Under the pieces are notes generated by a model. That model was given only the letters and a program-made list of their open reading frames with translations, had not been told where the DNA came from and searched no databases. Positions 49,677 to 53,731 of a stretch of DNA of 64,000 nucleotides are shown here, in pieces; within the stretch, counting starts at the first letter, position 1, and each line of letters starts with the position of its first letter. The DNA lies in IMG/VR virus record IMGVR_UViG_3300045988_150172. One strand, 5' to 3'. A program made the position numbers and the translations under genes. The stretch comes from a virus.

Positions 49677-52208
49677 ATGATGAAAAAGAAATTGGTTCCA
49701 GTTGAAAAGTTCATGGAAGTAGCTCTAGCCAATGGCTATGAAGTATTTGATGAGGCACAGGTTGCCGCTTATGCCAAGGACTTTATGATAAAATCTCAGG
49801 CAGGTGAAGTTCTGCAGGAGGATAAGGATGAATTTGCCGTAGAGATGGCAGGTCTTCAAAAGGCCATCTGTGCCAATGAGGACGGTAGCCAGTGTACCCT
49901 CTATTATCGTAAGCCGCTTGTTGACTGGAAAGTTGACAGCAATGGTCTTGTGATGAAAGGTATTGCAGGAACATATACTGATACACCTGAAAACAGAAAA
50001 TTGAATCGTGTTGGTCAGGCTTATGCGGCAAATCCTGATGTAATCAAGGCAATCTATGGCGATATTGAAAAGAGTGTAAAGGAAGATGAAGCTGTTGTTG
50101 ATGCTGAACTGTCTAAACAGGCTGATTCCATTAAGAAGTCCTGTCTGATTGTTACTGCTGATGCGGATAGAAGACTTGCGCTTGGTGAGATTGATGAAGC
50201 GCTCTGTAAGTCGGTTAAGGATGACATTAACTTGTATCTAACGTCTTGGGGTGATACGCTTGATGAATGCTGTGACGTTGTAAAGTCTGAGGACTTGGCT
50301 GACGTGCGTGAGGACTTGGCTGACGCTACCGCTGCATTTGCGGACATTGTTAAAGCAGCACACGGTCGCTATGCTGACAATGCCAAGAACAGGCGTCTGC
50401 ATCGTGTAGGTCAGGAATACGGTAAGGCGGCTCAGGAGGAGGACAAAGGTGGGAAGAAACAGGGTGCGGCTGACGGTGAGTCAGGTGAAAAACCGTCCCG
50501 CAACGGTGACTCCGTGAAGCGTGATATTTCCATTCTCGAAGAGAACAAGGACAGGATTGTTGAAAAGTACGGCCAGGAAGCCTATGACAAGAAGATTGAA
50601 GCCCTGAAGAAGGAGGGTGAGGACTTTGAGCAGAAGGAGACAGTGAAACAGCTTAAGGAGCGTGCTGACAAGCAGGATGCCGAGGAGGAGGAGCGTAAAA
50701 AGGCTGAAAAGAGAGCCAAGCGACAGGAAAGACGTAGAGCGCGTCATGCAGCCAAGAGGGAAGCAGCTAAAAAGGCCAAGGAGGAAGCCGAGCAGAAGGA
50801 GAAACAGGAGTCTGAAAAGAAGAAAGAGCAGCCGAAGCAGGAATCGAAGGAAGATGGTATTAAGTTGACTCCTAAAGGTATTAAGGACTATGTTGCCAAG
50901 AATAGTGCTACTGCTGATGATCGTATGAAAGCAATGGCTGAAGCTTATAAGGCACTTAAAGATAGCGGTAAGAGCAAGAAAGTTGACACTTTTGTTAAGG
51001 AAGTGTCAAGTGGAAGTCCAAAGGTGGATATGACTACACGTAAGTATCTGGAAGCTTCTATGGATGGAGCTACACACGAGGAAGCCAAGGAATTTGCTCA
51101 GAAGACGTTTGAAGCTCTTGATCATGATATTGAAGTGGCTCAGGCAGCTAGGGAGGGTGGACACCCTCAAGGTATGACGGATTATATGTTGAAAAAGGCT
51201 TATGACGTTTTTAATAAAGCGAAGTTTACAAAGAATGAATCACAGGCAGCTACATCTGAAGAGGACACCAAGAAGAAAGTTCGTGCCTTTATAAAGAATG
51301 GGCTTGATGGTGCTGTTGATAGAGCGATGAAAGGGTTTGTAGATGATTTTTATGGTGGTAATGGTGAACATTTGAATGTTTCTGATTATGTTAATAGTGG
51401 AGATTTTCAAGAATATTTGAGAGAAGAACTTCCTGACGGTATAATGATTTCTGATCTAAAGGAAGCTGTTTCATCAGCTGTTAAGGGTGGGATTCAGCGA
51501 ATGAAGGATGCAGTGTCTAAGGAAGAGGATAAACTTAAAGCAGAGGAAGAGAAATTAAAGGCTTCAAAGATTGACGAAGCTAAAAAGGCTGGTGCATCTC
51601 CCGAGGAAGCAAAAGCCTTTGCTGATAAACTTTATGCTGATACCATAGCGCGTGCAGAGAGGGAATACAAACGTGACCTAGAGGATGGTAAATTGCCTTA
51701 TGGAGCGGAGGATTATCAGAAGAAGTACGCTCGAGAAGCCTTTGATAATGCAAAATTTGAAAAGGGTAAAAAAGACCATGGGTATATGGATAAAGATGAT
51801 ATTGAGCACGTCATGGGTAATGCTGATGTTGTGTATGCTGATATAGATGAATTACTCAACACTATTAAGGAACATGGTATTTCTTCAATTCCAGATAAAA
51901 TGCGTCAAGGTGCAATATCCACTGAATTTAGCGGTGATGCTTTTGATCATGAAGCATCTGTCCTTATTCCAGGAATGTATAATCGTGTTGGAATGCAGAA
52001 TGCTTCAAAGGGTAAACAGCCTGAAAAGTTTTATTCATTGAATCTTAAATTGAAGAATGGTAGAACTTTGCGTGATTTTAATATGGGAAGAGTTACACGT
52101 GATGATATAGAAAGTGCTCATTTGCAGGTTAATTACCCCAAGGATAACACATATACGATAGAACGTGAAAAGATAAAACTTGACAAAGTTCCTGTTAATG
52201 TGTTGTAG
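49677..52208 (+). CDS. Large modular protein (843 aa) with two NR(R/K)LxRVGQ peptides, K/E-rich centre and a C-terminal domain shared with 52283..53731
   Basis: GTYTDTPENRKLNRVGQAYA (49968-50027) and GRYADNAKNRRLHRVGQEYG (50364-50423). C-terminal KFYSLNLKLKNGRTLRDFNMGRVTRDDIESAHLQV. Confidence 0.75.
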   Translation: MMKKKLVPVEKFMEVALANGYEVFDEAQVAAYAKDFMIKSQAGEVLQEDKDEFAVEMAGLQKAICANEDGSQCTLYYRKPLVDWKVDSNGLVMKGIAGTYTDTPENRKLNRVGQAYAANPDVIKAIYGDIEKSVKEDEAVVDAELSKQADSIKKSCLIVTADADRRLALGEIDEALCKSVKDDINLYLTSWGDTLDECCDVVKSEDLADVREDLADATAAFADIVKAAHGRYADNAKNRRLHRVGQEYGKAAQEEDKGGKKQGAADGESGEKPSRNGDSVKRDISILEENKDRIVEKYGQEAYDKKIEALKKEGEDFEQKETVKQLKERADKQDAEEEERKKAEKRAKRQERRRARHAAKREAAKKAKEEAEQKEKQESEKKKEQPKQESKEDGIKLTPKGIKDYVAKNSATADDRMKAMAEAYKALKDSGKSKKVDTFVKEVSSGSPKVDMTTRKYLEASMDGATHEEAKEFAQKTFEALDHDIEVAQAAREGGHPQGMTDYMLKKAYDVFNKAKFTKNESQAATSEEDTKKKVRAFIKNGLDGAVDRAMKGFVDDFYGGNGEHLNVSDYVNSGDFQEYLREELPDGIMISDLKEAVSSAVKGGIQRMKDAVSKEEDKLKAEEEKLKASKIDEAKKAGASPEEAKAFADKLYADTIARAEREYKRDLEDGKLPYGAEDYQKKYAREAFDNAKFEKGKKDHGYMDKDDIEHVMGNADVVYADIDELLNTIKEHGISSIPDKMRQGAISTEFSGDAFDHEASVLIPGMYNRVGMQNASKGKQPEKFYSLNLKLKNGRTLRDFNMGRVTRDDIESAHLQVNYPKDNTYTIEREKIKLDKVPVNVL

Positions 52209-52228
52209 TGTGAAATTTTATAGACAAC

Positions 52229-52262
52229 TCCTTGGATTTTTCTGAGGGGGTTGTTATATTTG
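52229..52262 (+). promoter_or_regulatory. Promoter/operator cassette copy P16 (degenerate)
   Basis: TCCTTGGATTTTTCTGAGG then TAtaTTTG (52255-52262), with ATG at 52283. Confidence 0.55.
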
Positions 52263-52282
52263 CATTTATAAAATGAAATGAT

Positions 52283-53731
52283 ATGTTAATAGAAAAATCA
52301 AGAAGTGGTGTTTATCAGGACACATCGGAAAATAGGCGTTTACACCGTGTCGGTCAGAAGTATGGTAAGGTAGCTCAGAAGGAGGAAGATTTTGAATCAT
52401 TTGCTGATAGGTACGAAAAAGAATATCGAAAGAAACATTCTGGCTCACCAGTTAAAAATTCTGAAATAAGGTACGAAGCATCAAAGGCATGGGATAAGAT
52501 GCATTCTTCAGAAAACCGTCGTTTACATCATGTAGGTCAGAAGTATGGTGGTGCAAAGAAAGATGAAGCAAAAGTTGATTACAAGGATGTAAAAAGTGTT
52601 GCTGATTTTTTACTAGATAAATTTAACATTTATTCTAAGACAGAAAATTATTCTGAAGTTTCTCCAACTTATCTAAAGTTGAATAAAGGTGTTGAAATCC
52701 GTTTTTCTCCTAAAAAAGAATCGGAAAGGGTAGGTAAAGTATTTTATTCTTCAAGTCAATTTGACAATGAACCTGTTTTTGTAACTATTCTTGCGTCGTT
52801 TGATAAATATCCTGAATTAAAGAAATTATTTGACAAGTTAAGTTCTACTAATCTTAAAGAAGCAACTGACGGTAAAACTGCTCAATGGGGGACTTGGAAG
52901 TTTGCAATTCGAAGCAAGGAAGATTTGAAAAAATTTGGTGAAATTTATAATCAAGTTTTCAACAAGAAAAAGGCTGTTTTAGAGTCAGGTGTGAAGAAAG
53001 GTGAAATGAAACAGGTTGAGAAAGTTTCTTCAAAAGTTGAAGAACAGCCTGTTAAGGAAAATGCTGAGAAGCAGGACAAACAGATTTCACGTGTTACTTT
53101 TGCAGACGTTCCACGTTCCAGGGAAGTGAACCTGAAGAAGTACCTTACTGATTCAAGGCGTAAGCAAGTTGATCATTTGATGAAAGCAGCGGAGGTTATG
53201 CCGAAAAGCACTGTAAAACAGATGCATGATGCAGCTGTTAAGAAGTTCAATGACAATTTTGATAACCTGAAGAAATCTGAACGTGCATCAGCTCTCTATG
53301 TTATTATGAAGTATAAGGACTTTATGAATAAGGCGAAGTCTTCACCTGATAGGAATAAGGTAGCGCGTGAGGATATAGTCAAAAGAATGTCTGATGCTAA
53401 AGTGTCATTTGGTTCTATAGAGCAGATTCTTAGGGAGGGTGCTGAAAAGAAGAGTGGTGATTCAGGAGCAGTAAAGGGTGATATTGAAGTTGACTTGTCT
53501 GGTTCCTATAATGATCATGCTTGGAAATCTTCTGGTCGCAGTAAGCCGAAGAAGACGTATCAGTTGATACTTCATACGGATGCTGATGCAGGTGCATTTA
53601 ATAGAGGAACGTTGACAAGGGATCAGATTAAGGGTGTTACGCTTGTTGAATCCAATCCATGGGAGGGTTTCTATGTTAAGATTAAGGATATGGATCTTGA
53701 TGATTTGCCTGTTCGTGCGGATAGAAAGTAA
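52283..53731 (+). CDS. Modular protein (482 aa) with two NRRLH(R/H)VGQKYG peptides
   Basis: MLIEKSRSGVYQDTSENRRLHRVGQKYG (52283-52366) and SSENRRLHHVGQKYG (52505-52549). VNLKKYLTDSRRKQVD is shared with 10995..12065. C-terminal KTYQLILHTDADAGAFNRGTLTRDQIKGVTLVE. Confidence 0.7.
   Translation: MLIEKSRSGVYQDTSENRRLHRVGQKYGKVAQKEEDFESFADRYEKEYRKKHSGSPVKNSEIRYEASKAWDKMHSSENRRLHHVGQKYGGAKKDEAKVDYKDVKSVADFLLDKFNIYSKTENYSEVSPTYLKLNKGVEIRFSPKKESERVGKVFYSSSQFDNEPVFVTILASFDKYPELKKLFDKLSSTNLKEATDGKTAQWGTWKFAIRSKEDLKKFGEIYNQVFNKKKAVLESGVKKGEMKQVEKVSSKVEEQPVKENAEKQDKQISRVTFADVPRSREVNLKKYLTDSRRKQVDHLMKAAEVMPKSTVKQMHDAAVKKFNDNFDNLKKSERASALYVIMKYKDFMNKAKSSPDRNKVAREDIVKRMSDAKVSFGSIEQILREGAEKKSGDSGAVKGDIEVDLSGSYNDHAWKSSGRSKPKKTYQLILHTDADAGAFNRGTLTRDQIKGVTLVESNPWEGFYVKIKDMDLDDLPVRADRK

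What the first reader, a model, noticed from the sequence alone, without database searches (positions are those of the whole stretch)
49677..53731. Conserved peptide (S/A)GxYxDxx(E/K)NR(R/K)L(H/N)(R/H)(V/A)G(Q/L)xY(G/A) marks a family of modular proteins just upstream of the head module
Seen: the motif occurs six times in four proteins. It lies at the extreme N-terminus of 10995..12065 (papain-like head), 12363..13091 (RelA/SpoT-like head) and 52283..53731. It lies internally at 49968-50027, 50364-50423 and 52505-52549. Nucleotide sequences of the copies differ at many synonymous sites, for example tcaggtgtctataaggatacttcagaaaatcgtagacttcatcgtgtaggccag against agtggtgtttatcaggacacatcggaaaataggcgtttacaccgtgtcggtcag. 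So it is the peptide that is conserved. The proteins also exchange other modules. VNLKKYL..QVD is shared by 10995 and 52283. A C-terminal ..Y.L.L......F N.G.(V/L)TRD.I domain is shared by 49677 and 52283. The two largest members sit directly before the portal, MuF and protease genes. Established: some phages load internal or ejected proteins into the capsid through a short N-terminal capsid-targeting sequence removed by the prohead protease. Polyvalent or MuF-linked toxins are delivered with the DNA. Inference: this peptide is a packaging, processing or docking signal. It would define a set of virion-delivered cargo effectors, including an alarmone-type nucleotidyltransferase. I recall similar N-R-x-L-G-R-V-G-like strings in Bacteroidota mobile-element proteins but cannot cite a characterised function.
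Basis: partly seen in the sequence, partly recalled or inferred. Interest (0 to 1): 0.75.

Follow-up and report, generated by a model that had tools for sequence, protein, structure and literature searches.

The report
Short peptide tag on phage toxins
A conserved peptide of about 25 residues, absent from the domain libraries searched, sits at the front of toxin-like proteins of Bacteroidales phages in the position where related phages carry the capsid protein MuF, so it is probably a loading tag for proteins injected with the DNA; the same peptide also occurs in tandem arrays in a family of animal and protist protein kinases.

Summary
Six copies of GxYxD(T/N)xxNR(R/K)LxRVGxxYG lie in four + strand ORFs, against 0.00 expected by chance. 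The peptide is conserved, not the DNA, and both module exchanges are real.

The motif has no match in Pfam, NCBIfam, PHROGs, PDB sequences or the searched literature. It is widespread: 922 protein clusters and more than 120 IMG/VR loci. Among 50,697 phage records it occurs only in six Bacteroides thetaiotaomicron phages.

It precedes polymorphic-toxin domains. These include Gln deamidase, a Tas1-like (p)ppApp synthetase with an Aph1-like hydrolase nearby, Zeta toxin, ADP-ribosyltransferases, and NUDIX or kinase polyvalent proteins. Motif genes cluster with portal, MuF and protease genes. Published Bacteroidales prophages fuse three of these toxin types (ADP-ribosyltransferase, Gln deaminase, alarmone synthetase) to MuF. 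In motif phages MuF is always short and never carries the motif.

Best reading (about 0.45, inferred): a trafficking or capsid-docking tag that replaces covalent MuF fusion. Cleavage by the prohead protease has no support.

Unexpectedly, the same motif forms arrays of 4 to 13 copies N-terminal to TKL kinases in molluscs, cnidarians, echinoderms, arthropods and protists. A pure packaging signal does not explain this. It points to a more general binding or self-association module.

The parts
11031..11090 (+). Motif copy 1, GVYKDTSENRRLHRVGQRYG (aa 13-32 of ORF 10995-12065)
   Evidence: The eukaryote-only HMM hits 11022-11090 with i-E 1.9e-7.
12399..12458 (+). Motif copy 2, GVYKDNPENRRLHRAGLQYG (aa 13-32 of ORF 12363-13091)
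   Evidence: The eukaryote-only HMM gives i-E 1.2e-8.
49968..50027 (+). Motif copy 3, GTYTDTPENRKLNRVGQAYA (aa 98-117 of protein A, 49677-52208)
   Evidence: AF2 predicts strand 97-100, helix 104-108, strand 115-117, with pLDDT up to 85.
50364..50423 (+). Motif copy 4, GRYADNAKNRRLHRVGQEYG (aa 230-249 of protein A)
   Evidence: The eukaryote-only HMM gives i-E 2.3e-9. AF2 gives the same strand, short helix, strand pattern.
52307..52366 (+). Motif copy 5, GVYQDTSENRRLHRVGQKYG (aa 9-28 of protein B, 52283-53731)
   Evidence: The motif is nearly invariant at aa 17-26 in homologues with variable C-termini.
52490..52549 (+). Motif copy 6, a half copy: WDKMHSSENRRLHHVGQKYG (aa 70-89 of protein B)
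   Evidence: It is weak on the eukaryote-only HMM (i-E 0.056). It is also present in P0018 and P0025.
10995..12065 (+). Effector 1: motif, VNLKKYL helical module (11133-11357), then a papain-fold Gln-deamidase toxin domain (aa 190-308)
   Evidence: PF15644, E=1.2e-11, above its cut-off. phrog_28631, E=1e-17. Module shared with B.
12068..12304 (+). 78-aa ORF immediately after the deamidase gene; candidate immunity protein
   Evidence: Position only. No family hit. Orthologues follow the deamidase orthologue in L041 and L087.
12363..13091 (+). Effector 2: motif, charged linker, then a Tas1/Apk-like (p)ppApp synthetase toxin domain (aa 57-239)
   Evidence: Tas1, PDB 6OX6, E=8.3e-18. Pfam RelA_SpoT scores 25.0 bits, just below the 27-bit cut-off. 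phrog_7625 C-terminal part, E=1.3e-7.
13088..13336 (+). 82-aa ORF overlapping the stop of the synthetase gene; candidate non-enzymatic immunity protein
   Evidence: Position only. The arrangement parallels Apk2 and Bxa cassettes (PMC12226406, PMC11699363).
13910..14449 (+). Aph1-like (p)ppApp hydrolase; candidate enzymatic immunity for 12363
   Evidence: PDB 7SMG '(p)ppApp hydrolase', E=8.9e-21. Pfam HD_4 is weak.
49677..52208 (+). Protein A (843 aa): conserved N-domain (aa 1-95), two motifs, a K/E-rich region, and a variable C-terminus that includes the domain shared with B (51762-52196)
   Evidence: No Pfam, PHROG, NCBIfam or PDB match.
52283..53731 (+). Protein B (482 aa): N-terminal motif, half motif, VNLKKYL module (53108-53320), then the C-terminal domain (53336-53713)
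53823..54512 (+). Conserved 229-aa gene between B and the portal, function unknown
   Evidence: Syntenic in 27 related loci. No family hit.
54525..56243 (+). Portal protein
   Evidence: PF04860, E=9e-18; phrog_12, E=5e-40.
56415..57362 (+). Short stand-alone MuF/SPP1-gp7-like minor head protein with no toxin extension; candidate docking partner
   Evidence: phrog_115, E=5e-8. PF04233 and TIGR01641 score below their cut-offs. MuF homologues in motif loci have a C-terminal extension of at most 9 aa in 26 of 26 cases.
57340..58698 (+). NUDIX protein of the head module. In relatives it is fused to the motif and to further effector domains.
   Evidence: PF00293, E=7e-16. Relatives P0129, P0154, P0161, P0188 and P0200.
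58739..59401 (+). Prohead maturation protease
   Evidence: phrog_1028, E=4.8e-39.

Best explanation
The peptide hxK(A/S)(R/K)xGxYxD(T/N)xxNR(R/K)LxRVG(Q/M)xYG is a small autonomous module. AF2 predicts strand, turn, one-turn helix, strand. A charged flexible linker follows it.

In Bacteroidales myoviruses it serves as the trafficking tag of a family of phage-encoded polymorphic toxins and effectors. The proposed steps are as follows.
1. The tag docks cargo non-covalently onto a component of the head-assembly machinery. The short stand-alone MuF protein, the portal, or the tag-bearing head-module proteins A and B are the candidates.
2. Toxins are thereby loaded into the procapsid and injected with the DNA. 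These include a Gln deamidase, a Tas1-like (p)ppApp synthetase, Zeta toxin, ADP-ribosyltransferases, and kinase or NUDIX polyvalent proteins.
3. Adjacent small ORFs and an Aph1-like hydrolase protect the producing cell.

The tag thus replaces the covalent MuF-toxin fusion used by Bacteroidales prophages.

Shown: the motif, its distribution, its fusions and its gene neighbourhoods. Inferred: docking, encapsidation and injection. No cleavage is assumed.
For: 1. The motif is real and under selection at the peptide level.

2. It is a family signature. There are 922 clusters at 50% identity with E<=1e-3. In homologues of B the motif is nearly invariant while the C-termini vary.

3. Position. Most copies lie within the first 50 residues, or just ahead of an effector domain in polyvalent proteins.

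4. Cargo. PF15644 Gln deamidase. Tas1-like synthetase, E=8e-18, with an Aph1-like hydrolase, E=9e-21, 0.8 kb downstream. Zeta toxin in the cultured phage SJC03, E=8e-34. NUDIX, Kinase-PolyVal, ART-PolyVal and ADPrib_exo_Tox in relatives.

5. Neighbourhood. 69 of 120 loci, and 42 of 56 loci of at least 8 kb, carry portal, MuF, protease or MCP homologues. The median distance from motif to nearest head gene is 1.9 kb. This holds in phages whose portals are only 34-40% identical. In the complete SJC03 genome one of the four tagged genes directly follows MuF.

6. Positional equivalence. Bacteroidales prophages fuse MuF to ART, Gln-deaminase and Apk2-like toxins, with small immunity ORFs and an Aph1-like hydrolase. 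MuF is there hypothesised to target the capsid (PMC11699363; PMC12226406; PMC5576092).

7. Complementary distribution. No sampled protein carries both the tag and the MuF HPxC(R/K)C signature. All 26 complete MuF homologues in tagged phages lack a toxin extension.

8. Several tagged proteins per genome (4 in this window, 4 in SJC03), as expected for a shared sorting signal.
Against: - There is no experimental evidence that any tagged protein is in a virion. No proteome was found for the six cultured carriers.
- The same motif forms arrays of 4-13 copies in eukaryotic TKL kinases, where capsid loading is meaningless.
- Genes 10995 and 12363 lie in the replication and recombination block, 38 kb from the head module.
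- 12363, A and B each carry a copy of a promoter-like element that also precedes a helicase gene, so late co-expression is not shown.
- Internal copies in polyvalent proteins are not needed for loading if the N-terminal part already does that.
- No receptor has been identified.
- AF2 confidence for the motif is only moderate (pLDDT 56-85).
Confidence: 0.45

Rival explanations
1. Interaction module for a partner that is not capsid-specific. The motif binds something present in both bacteria and eukaryotes, such as a chaperone, the translation machinery or a nucleotide-bound protein. It acts after injection or in the cytoplasm, to place, activate or refold the effector. Head-module linkage would then reflect only that the effectors are virion cargo loaded by other means.
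For: - The same motif with the same spacing occurs in TKL kinases of at least five animal phyla and two protist lineages.
- A eukaryote-only HMM recovers five of the six window copies with significant scores (the sixth, a half copy, weakly) and no comparable hit elsewhere.
- Internal copies sit ahead of each effector module in polyvalent proteins.
- Two tagged genes lie outside the head module.
- The core recalls the DnaK model peptide NRLLLTG. This is from my own memory and is not tested.
Against: - Over 20 residues, 10-11 positions are conserved, including Gly, Asn and Tyr. That is far more specific than known chaperone-binding peptides.
- The Bacteroidales hosts lack the motif in their own genomes: only 6 phage-like hits in 185,579 genomes. 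It therefore does not mimic a host motif.
- No partner is known.
- This reading does not explain why tagged phages always have short MuF.
Confidence: 0.2
2. Homotypic adaptor. Motif copies bind one another by pairing of the small hairpins. Head-anchored proteins with one or two copies (A, B, SJC03_200, NUDIX polyvalent proteins) would recruit tagged toxins. In eukaryotes the arrays would cluster the kinases, as RHIM or Death-fold motifs do.
For: - The motif occurs both in conserved head-module proteins and in variable toxins of the same genome. That is the pattern of homotypic adaptor domains in conflict systems.
- Protein A has a conserved N-domain followed by two copies.
- Arrays in kinases fit clustering.
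- This reading unifies the phage and eukaryote data.
Against: - No direct evidence of self-association.
- The peptide is polar and charged, unlike amyloid-type signalling motifs.
- The AF2 monomer models show isolated hairpins with moderate confidence.
- This is a special case of the docking model rather than a true alternative.
Confidence: 0.15
3. Processing signal. The motif marks the sites where the prohead protease, or another peptidase, cuts polyvalent proteins into separate effectors and removes short N-terminal propeptides, as with the T4 capsid-targeting sequence.
For: - Internal copies lie between domains of polyvalent proteins of 800-1450 aa.
- N-terminal copies lie 10-50 residues from the start.
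- A prohead protease gene is adjacent.
- Processing of packaged polyvalent proteins is discussed in PMC5512222.
Against: - No conserved acidic or small residue pattern like L/I-x-E or S/A/G-x-E is present. The E before NR occurs in only 57% of phage copies and is absent in eukaryote copies.
- A cleavage site rarely needs 10 conserved positions and a folded hairpin.
- Arrays of up to 13 copies in kinases are hard to read as cleavage sites.
Confidence: 0.1
4. Nucleic-acid-binding hook. The basic hairpin (NRRLHRVGQRYGK) binds DNA, so that cargo is tethered to the packaged genome and leaves with it. In kinases the arrays would sense nucleic acid.
For: - The core is basic, with invariant Arg residues, and a GxxG-like LGRVG occurs in many copies.
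- SPP1 gp7, a MuF protein, binds DNA (established knowledge).
- Arrays of short basic motifs separated by Ser-rich linkers resemble AT-hook proteins.
Against: - The first Gly of LGRVG is replaced by H or N in the window copies.
- The flanking linkers are as acidic as they are basic: 6.5 D+E against 5.6 K+R per 30 aa.
- Proteins bound to DNA cannot pass the packaging motor, so loading would still need another mechanism.
- No similarity to known DNA-binding motifs was found in Pfam or PDB.
Confidence: 0.07

Closest known systems
MuF polymorphic toxins of (pro)phages, including Bacteroidales Bxa and the Apk2 (p)ppApp synthetases (PMC5576092, PMC11699363, PMC12226406)
   Same: - The toxin repertoire overlaps: ADP-ribosyltransferase, Gln deamidase or deaminase, and Tas1/Apk-like alarmone synthetase.
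- The grammar is the same: an N-terminal non-toxic module, a variable C-terminal toxin, a small downstream ORF and, for the synthetase, an Aph1-like hydrolase.
- The host order (Bacteroidales) is the same.
- Both are linked to the head-morphogenesis genes.
   Different: - The N-terminal module is a 25-aa peptide, not the MuF domain of about 300 aa.
- MuF is a separate short protein here.
- The carriers are phages of about 100-180 kb with their own DNA polymerase, helicases and ligase, not the temperate phages to which MuF toxins were reported to be restricted.
- Two tagged toxin genes lie far from the head module.
T4 capsid-targeting sequence of internal proteins IPI-III and Alt (PMC3012670, PMC9958956; listed, not read)
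   Same: A short N-terminal peptide is shared by several otherwise unrelated proteins of one phage, some of them enzymes delivered with the DNA. The logic of a common sorting signal is the same.
   Different: - No sequence similarity.
- The T4 signal is about 10 residues and is removed by gp21 at L/I-x-E. Here the motif is 20-25 residues, predicted to fold, has no conserved cleavage site, also occurs internally and in two copies, and is found outside phages.
Polyvalent proteins of phages and conjugative elements (Iyer, Burroughs, Anand, de Souza, Aravind 2017; PMC5512222)
   Same: - Relatives of the window's proteins are bona fide polyvalent proteins: NUDIX + Kinase-PolyVal, and NUDIX + ART-PolyVal + DUF5661. 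They are encoded beside portal, MuF and protease genes.
- RelA/SpoT-like domains are noted in that paper as MuF-fused effectors.
- That paper also records a polyvalent-protein domain (ArdC-N) acquired by eukaryotes.
   Different: - The motif is not among the Pfam models derived from that work (no LPD or PolyVal hit on it), and the string GRVG does not occur in the paper.
- It was not found in conjugative elements in the one strict-pattern genome scan.
Tas1, the type VI secretion (p)ppApp synthetase toxin of Pseudomonas aeruginosa (PDB 6OX6), with Aph1 hydrolase (PDB 7SMG; PMC10083569)
   Same: The toxin domain of 12363 matches Tas1 at E=8e-18, and 13910-14449 matches Aph1 at E=9e-21. The toxin-plus-hydrolase pairing is the same.
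   Different: The delivery module differs. Tas1 has an N-terminal type VI trafficking region, whereas the phage protein has the 25-aa tag.

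Membership tests
MuF polymorphic toxins | N-terminal MuF (PF04233 / SPP1 gp7) domain in the same polypeptide as the toxin | tested here: not met
   No MuF hit in 10995, 12363, 49677 or 52283. No protein among about 540 sampled has both the motif and the HPxC(R/K)C signature. MuF is a separate 315-aa gene (56415-57362).
MuF polymorphic toxins | Variable C-terminal toxin domain shared with other polymorphic toxin families | tested here: met
   PF15644, E=1.2e-11. Tas1, E=8e-18. 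Zeta_toxin, ART and kinase domains in relatives.
MuF polymorphic toxins | Small immunity ORF immediately downstream, plus a hydrolase for alarmone synthetases | tested here: inconclusive
   Small ORFs 12068-12304 and 13088-13336 are present but have no family hit. The Aph1-like hydrolase match is clear (E=9e-21). Neutralisation is not testable here.
MuF polymorphic toxins | Gene located in the head-morphogenesis region | tested here: inconclusive
   Met for A and B and for many relatives. Not met for 10995 and 12363, or for SJC03_69, _77 and _78.
T4-type capsid-targeting-sequence proteins | N-terminal signal removed by the prohead protease at a conserved site (L/I-x-E) | tested here: not met
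   There is no conserved acidic residue at a fixed position. E at position -1 of NR occurs in 57% of 98 phage copies, and is replaced by Q, K, T or L in the others. Cleavage itself is not testable here.
T4-type capsid-targeting-sequence proteins | Presence of the tagged proteins in purified virions | not testable with these tools
   No virion proteome of SJC03, DAC16-23 or relatives was found.
Polyvalent proteins (Iyer et al. 2017) | Several unrelated effector domains in one polypeptide, encoded beside packaging genes | tested here: inconclusive
   Met by relatives P0188 (NUDIX + kinase), P0200 (NUDIX + ART + DUF5661) and P0142. Each of the four window proteins has at most one recognisable enzymatic domain.
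Tas1/Apk (p)ppApp synthetase toxins (for ORF 12363) | Sequence membership of the RelA/SpoT-like toxin domain | tested here: met
   phmmer against PDB: 6OX6 Tas1, E=8.3e-18, query aa 57-239 aligned to chain aa 255-435. Pfam RelA_SpoT scores 25.0 bits, below the 27-bit cut-off.
Tas1/Apk (p)ppApp synthetase toxins (for ORF 12363) | Synthesis of (p)ppApp from ATP, and toxicity | not testable with these tools
   Needs an enzyme assay.
Any described protein domain or repeat family (for the motif itself) | Match of the motif to a curated model or solved structure | tested here: not met
   Pfam at E<=1, PHROGs, NCBIfam and the PDB profile search at E<=10 all give nothing. No paper in the library contains NRKLGRVG, NRRLGRVG, NRSLGRVG or NRRLHRVG.

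The most novel reading that the evidence does not exclude
The motif is a previously undescribed cross-kingdom mini-adaptor: a hairpin of about 20 residues that mediates specific, possibly homotypic, protein-protein recruitment. In Bacteroidales phages it would assemble an exchangeable toxin cargo onto head-anchored tagged proteins. In animals and protists, arrays of 4-13 copies would cluster a dedicated TKL kinase family, in the way RHIM or Death-fold adaptors do. That would imply transfer of a conflict-system adaptor between phages and eukaryotes.
Probability: 0.15. Interest if true: 0.9.

Novelty: new variant of a known kind. Interest (0 to 1): 0.72.

Why it matters
- If the tag loads cargo, it defines a second, non-covalent route by which phages arm their capsids with polymorphic toxins. 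The only route proposed so far is fusion to MuF.
- It flags hundreds of unannotated proteins of abundant gut Bacteroidales phages as candidate injected effectors.
- A portable tag of 25-30 residues would be a practical handle for loading chosen proteins into Bacteroides phage capsids.
- It is directly testable in cultured phages (SJC03, DAC16-23).
- The unexpected kinase arrays in molluscs, cnidarians, echinoderms, arthropods and protists suggest that the peptide has an intrinsic binding activity of wider significance. They also give an uncharacterised eukaryotic kinase family its first functional lead.

Tried and rejected
- Chance or low complexity: rejected. 6 matches against 0.00 expected. 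Shuffled units score at most 10.6 bits, against a median of 28 bits for real units.
- DNA-level repeat or recent duplication: rejected. About half of the identical residues use different codons.
- Known domain: no hit for the motif in Pfam, PHROGs, NCBIfam, PDB sequence or profile searches, or Foldseek. Literature string searches were empty.
- The 78-aa ORF family (12068-12304, with a frameshifted paralogue at 13339-13575) as a generic tag-binding chaperone: rejected. It occurs only in the closest relatives.
- Shared promoter as evidence for late co-expression: rejected. The same promoter-like element also precedes a helicase gene and others.
- AF2 of B was poor (mean pLDDT 51). AF2 of A 1-268 gave a confident N-domain without any PDB relative.
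- A megablast search of the region against phage records found nothing.
- Resemblances recalled from memory to D-box, RxLR/PEXEL, tankyrase-binding, PP1 RVxF, MAPK docking and KH GxxG motifs fail on spacing or on non-conserved positions. None was tested with tools.
- A co-folding test of the tag with MuF or the portal could not be run with the tools allowed.

Full report
**1. The observation**

The window carries six copies of NR[RK]L[HN][RH][VA]G, all on the + strand. They lie in ORFs 10995-12065, 12363-13091, 49677-52208 (two copies, here called protein A) and 52283-53731 (two copies, protein B). No other copy occurs in any of the six frames.

A degenerate back-translation of the core matches six times against 0.00 expected in 100 shuffles. 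Five copies carry the full GxYxD(T/N)xxNR(R/K)LxR(V/A)G(Q/L)xY(G/A). The sixth (52490-52549) is a half copy.

Across the 15 pairs of copies, roughly half of the identical residues use different codons.

Both module exchanges are significant. The VNLKKYL helical module is shared by 10995 and B (E=7e-9). A C-terminal domain is shared by A and B (E=8e-6).

The head module downstream is as described:
- portal
- a short MuF/SPP1-gp7-like protein
- a NUDIX protein
- the prohead protease (phrog_1028)
- a scaffold-like acidic protein
- an SU10-type major capsid protein

One unannotated gene (53823-54512) lies between B and the portal.

**2. What the four proteins are**

- ORF 10995 carries a papain-fold glutamine-deamidase toxin domain (PF15644, E=1e-11).
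- ORF 12363 is more specific than 'RelA/SpoT-like'. Residues 57-239 match Tas1, the type VI secretion (p)ppApp synthetase toxin (PDB 6OX6, E=8e-18).
- An ORF 0.8 kb downstream (13910-14449) matches the (p)ppApp hydrolase Aph1 (PDB 7SMG, E=9e-21).
- Small ORFs directly follow both toxin genes (12068-12304 and 13088-13336).
- Proteins A and B have no match in Pfam, PHROGs, NCBIfam or PDB.

AF2 gives a confident alpha/beta N-domain for A (aa 1-85, pLDDT 84-89) with no PDB relative. It gives a confident helical VNLKKYL module in B.

In both models every motif copy is predicted as strand (GxY), turn (DTxE), one-turn helix (NRRL), RVG, strand (xY). The pLDDT is 56-85. This is a small hairpin-like unit followed by a charged linker, in which about 12 of the next 30 residues are K, R, D or E.

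**3. Distribution**

A profile of the six copies finds 922 clusters (at 50% identity) with E<=1e-3 among 1.84 billion representatives.

Many of the contigs are 55-110 kb, and one is 199 kb.

Among 50,697 phage records only six carry the motif: the Bacteroides thetaiotaomicron phages SJC03 and DAC16, 19, 20, 22 and 23. Each has three to five copies.

Among 185,579 species genomes the strict pattern gives six real hits, all in Bacteroidales, and one chance hit.

The phage is a myovirus-like lineage of Bacteroidales:
- its contig is about 103 kb
- its portal is closest to those of Herelleviridae-type phages
- it encodes its own DNA polymerase, helicases, ligase, SbcCD and a UvsX-like recombinase

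**4. Architecture and neighbourhood**

In 150 motif-bearing ORFs from viral loci the first copy usually lies in one of three places:
- within the first 50 residues
- at about residue 100, with a second copy at 142-230 (A-type proteins)
- deep inside polyvalent proteins of 800-1450 aa, typically just after a NUDIX domain or just before the next effector domain

Recognisable fusion partners are the following:
- NUDIX
- DUF5661
- Gln deamidase
- Kinase-PolyVal
- ART-PolyVal
- ADPrib_exo_Tox
- Zeta toxin (SJC03_69, E=8e-34)
- the Tas1-like domain

Motif genes are linked to head genes. 69 of 120 loci, and 42 of 56 loci of at least 8 kb, contain portal, MuF, protease, NUDIX or MCP homologues. The median distance from the motif to the nearest head gene is 1.9 kb.

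Several layouts recur, in phages whose portals are only 34-40% identical:
- A, B, gene 53823, portal, MuF, NUDIX, protease
- portal, tagged gene, MuF
- MuF, NUDIX with an internal motif, protease

In the complete SJC03 genome three tagged genes cluster at 21-25 kb. The fourth (SJC03_200) directly follows MuF.

**5. Comparison with what is known**

[quoted passage not shown] Each is followed by small immunity ORFs, and the synthetase also by an Aph1-like hydrolase. MuF is there described as a hypothesised capsid-targeting domain (PMC11699363; PMC12226406; PMC5576092).

The window shows the Gln-deamidase and alarmone-synthetase types, and relatives add ADP-ribosyltransferases. The immunity grammar is the same, but with the 25-residue peptide in the MuF position.

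The distribution is complementary. No sampled protein has both the motif and the MuF signature. All 26 complete MuF homologues in motif-bearing loci end within 9 residues of the MuF alignment, so none has a toxin extension.

I take this positional equivalence, together with the head-module linkage and the several tagged proteins per genome, as the main support for reading the peptide as a trafficking tag that docks cargo non-covalently to the head-assembly machinery. It is an inference. Nothing here shows encapsidation.

**6. What the packaging reading does not explain**

The top hits of the profile search are eukaryotic. They are TKL-type protein kinases with 4-13 tandem copies of (K/R)TYVDNxxNRxLGRVGxxxG(S/T)xV, spaced about 40 residues apart by Ser-rich linkers and lying N-terminal to the kinase domain.

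They sit on scaffolds from about 0.1 Mb to over 100 Mb in these groups:
- gastropods and bivalves
- Hydra and Hydractinia
- crinoids and sea stars
- a nemertean
- a centipede, a springtail, an amphipod, and gall and fungus midges
- the protists Carpediemonas and Tribonema

The match holds at the level of single units. Y, D, N, R, L, R, V and G are at 88-100% in both sets with identical spacing. These units were selected with a regex that restricts those positions. Single eukaryotic units score a median of 19.8 and up to 40.4 bits on the six-copy window profile, against at most 7.9 bits for shuffled units.

An HMM built only from eukaryotic units recovers five of the six window copies (i-E from 2e-9 to 1e-6; the half copy scores 0.056). 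The only other hits were two spurious ones with negative scores and i-E above 3.

A capsid signal cannot be the function in these kinases. The peptide therefore probably has an intrinsic binding or self-association activity that phages use for cargo recruitment.

**7. Other weaknesses**

- There is no conserved cleavage site. The E before NR is present in 57% of phage copies.
- Genes 10995 and 12363 lie in the replication and recombination block.
- The promoter-like element that 12363, A and B share also precedes a helicase gene, so timing is unresolved.
- No virion proteome was found for the six cultured carriers.

**8. Verdict**

The thing is best filed as a new variant of phage-encoded polymorphic toxin or polyvalent effector systems. 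It has a new, very short N-terminal module that is absent from the curated libraries searched and, surprisingly, shared with a eukaryotic kinase family.

Noticed in passing
Outside the window: proteins P0121-P0124, P0130-P0134, P0260-P0359 (e.g. Biomphalaria pfeifferi KAK0061970.1, Acanthaster planci XP_022104385.1, Hydra vulgaris 'splB'): A family of eukaryotic TKL protein kinases carries 4-13 tandem copies of the same motif (TYVDNxxNRxLGRVG) N-terminal to the kinase domain. It occurs in Mollusca, Cnidaria, Echinodermata, Nemertea, Arthropoda, Carpediemonas and Tribonema. No literature was found.
   Followed up: partly
window 12363-14449: A complete (p)ppApp toxin cassette in a phage that looks virulent. 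It comprises a Tas1-like synthetase (E=8e-18), an overlapping 82-aa ORF (13088-13336) and an Aph1-like (p)ppApp hydrolase (13910-14449, E=9e-21). This mirrors MuF-Apk2 prophage cassettes.
   Followed up: yes
window 13339-13575: A frameshifted paralogue of the 78-aa ORF 12068-12304 (58% and 52% identity in two frames, E=8e-20). The frame breaks at a run of five T. It is either a pseudogene or an assembly error in a homopolymer. Both copies lie just downstream of tagged toxin genes.
   Followed up: partly
window + strand 3125, 12313, 27516, 30730, 38422, 44638, 49561, 52230; - strand 47633: A repeated promoter-like element, CCTTGGATAT(T/C)(C/T)(C/A)AGAAA...TTA(C/T)(C/A)TTTG, with a Bacteroides-type TAnnTTTG -7 box. 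It lies ahead of 12363, A, B, a Dda-like helicase gene and several small genes. Its temporal class is unknown.
   Followed up: partly
window 20573-22201: A phage-encoded GroEL-like chaperonin (phrog_5725, E=4e-138).
   Followed up: no
window 58489-58548 (aa 384-403 of the NUDIX protein): SYNENPETNRLVQCEVSYIG resembles the motif with a one-residue insertion. It lies downstream of the NUDIX domain, as the motif does in relatives (there about 50 residues after the domain; here about 110). It may be a degenerate relic. The HMMs did not detect it.
   Followed up: no
window 45325-48640 (- strand) and 47777-48640: The only block transcribed on the minus strand lies just upstream of protein A. Its last gene has a weak Rep3_N (initiator WH1) hit (E=5e-4). 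Protein A is therefore the first gene after a strand switch and a 1-kb intergenic region.
   Followed up: no
L002 5178-8042 (Bacteroides phage DAC16_81) and L002 3917-4981 (DAC16_79): In DAC16 a tagged AAA-like protein (DAC16_79) is followed by a 954-aa protein with a putative polysaccharide deacetylase domain (PF15421, E=1e-40).
   Followed up: no
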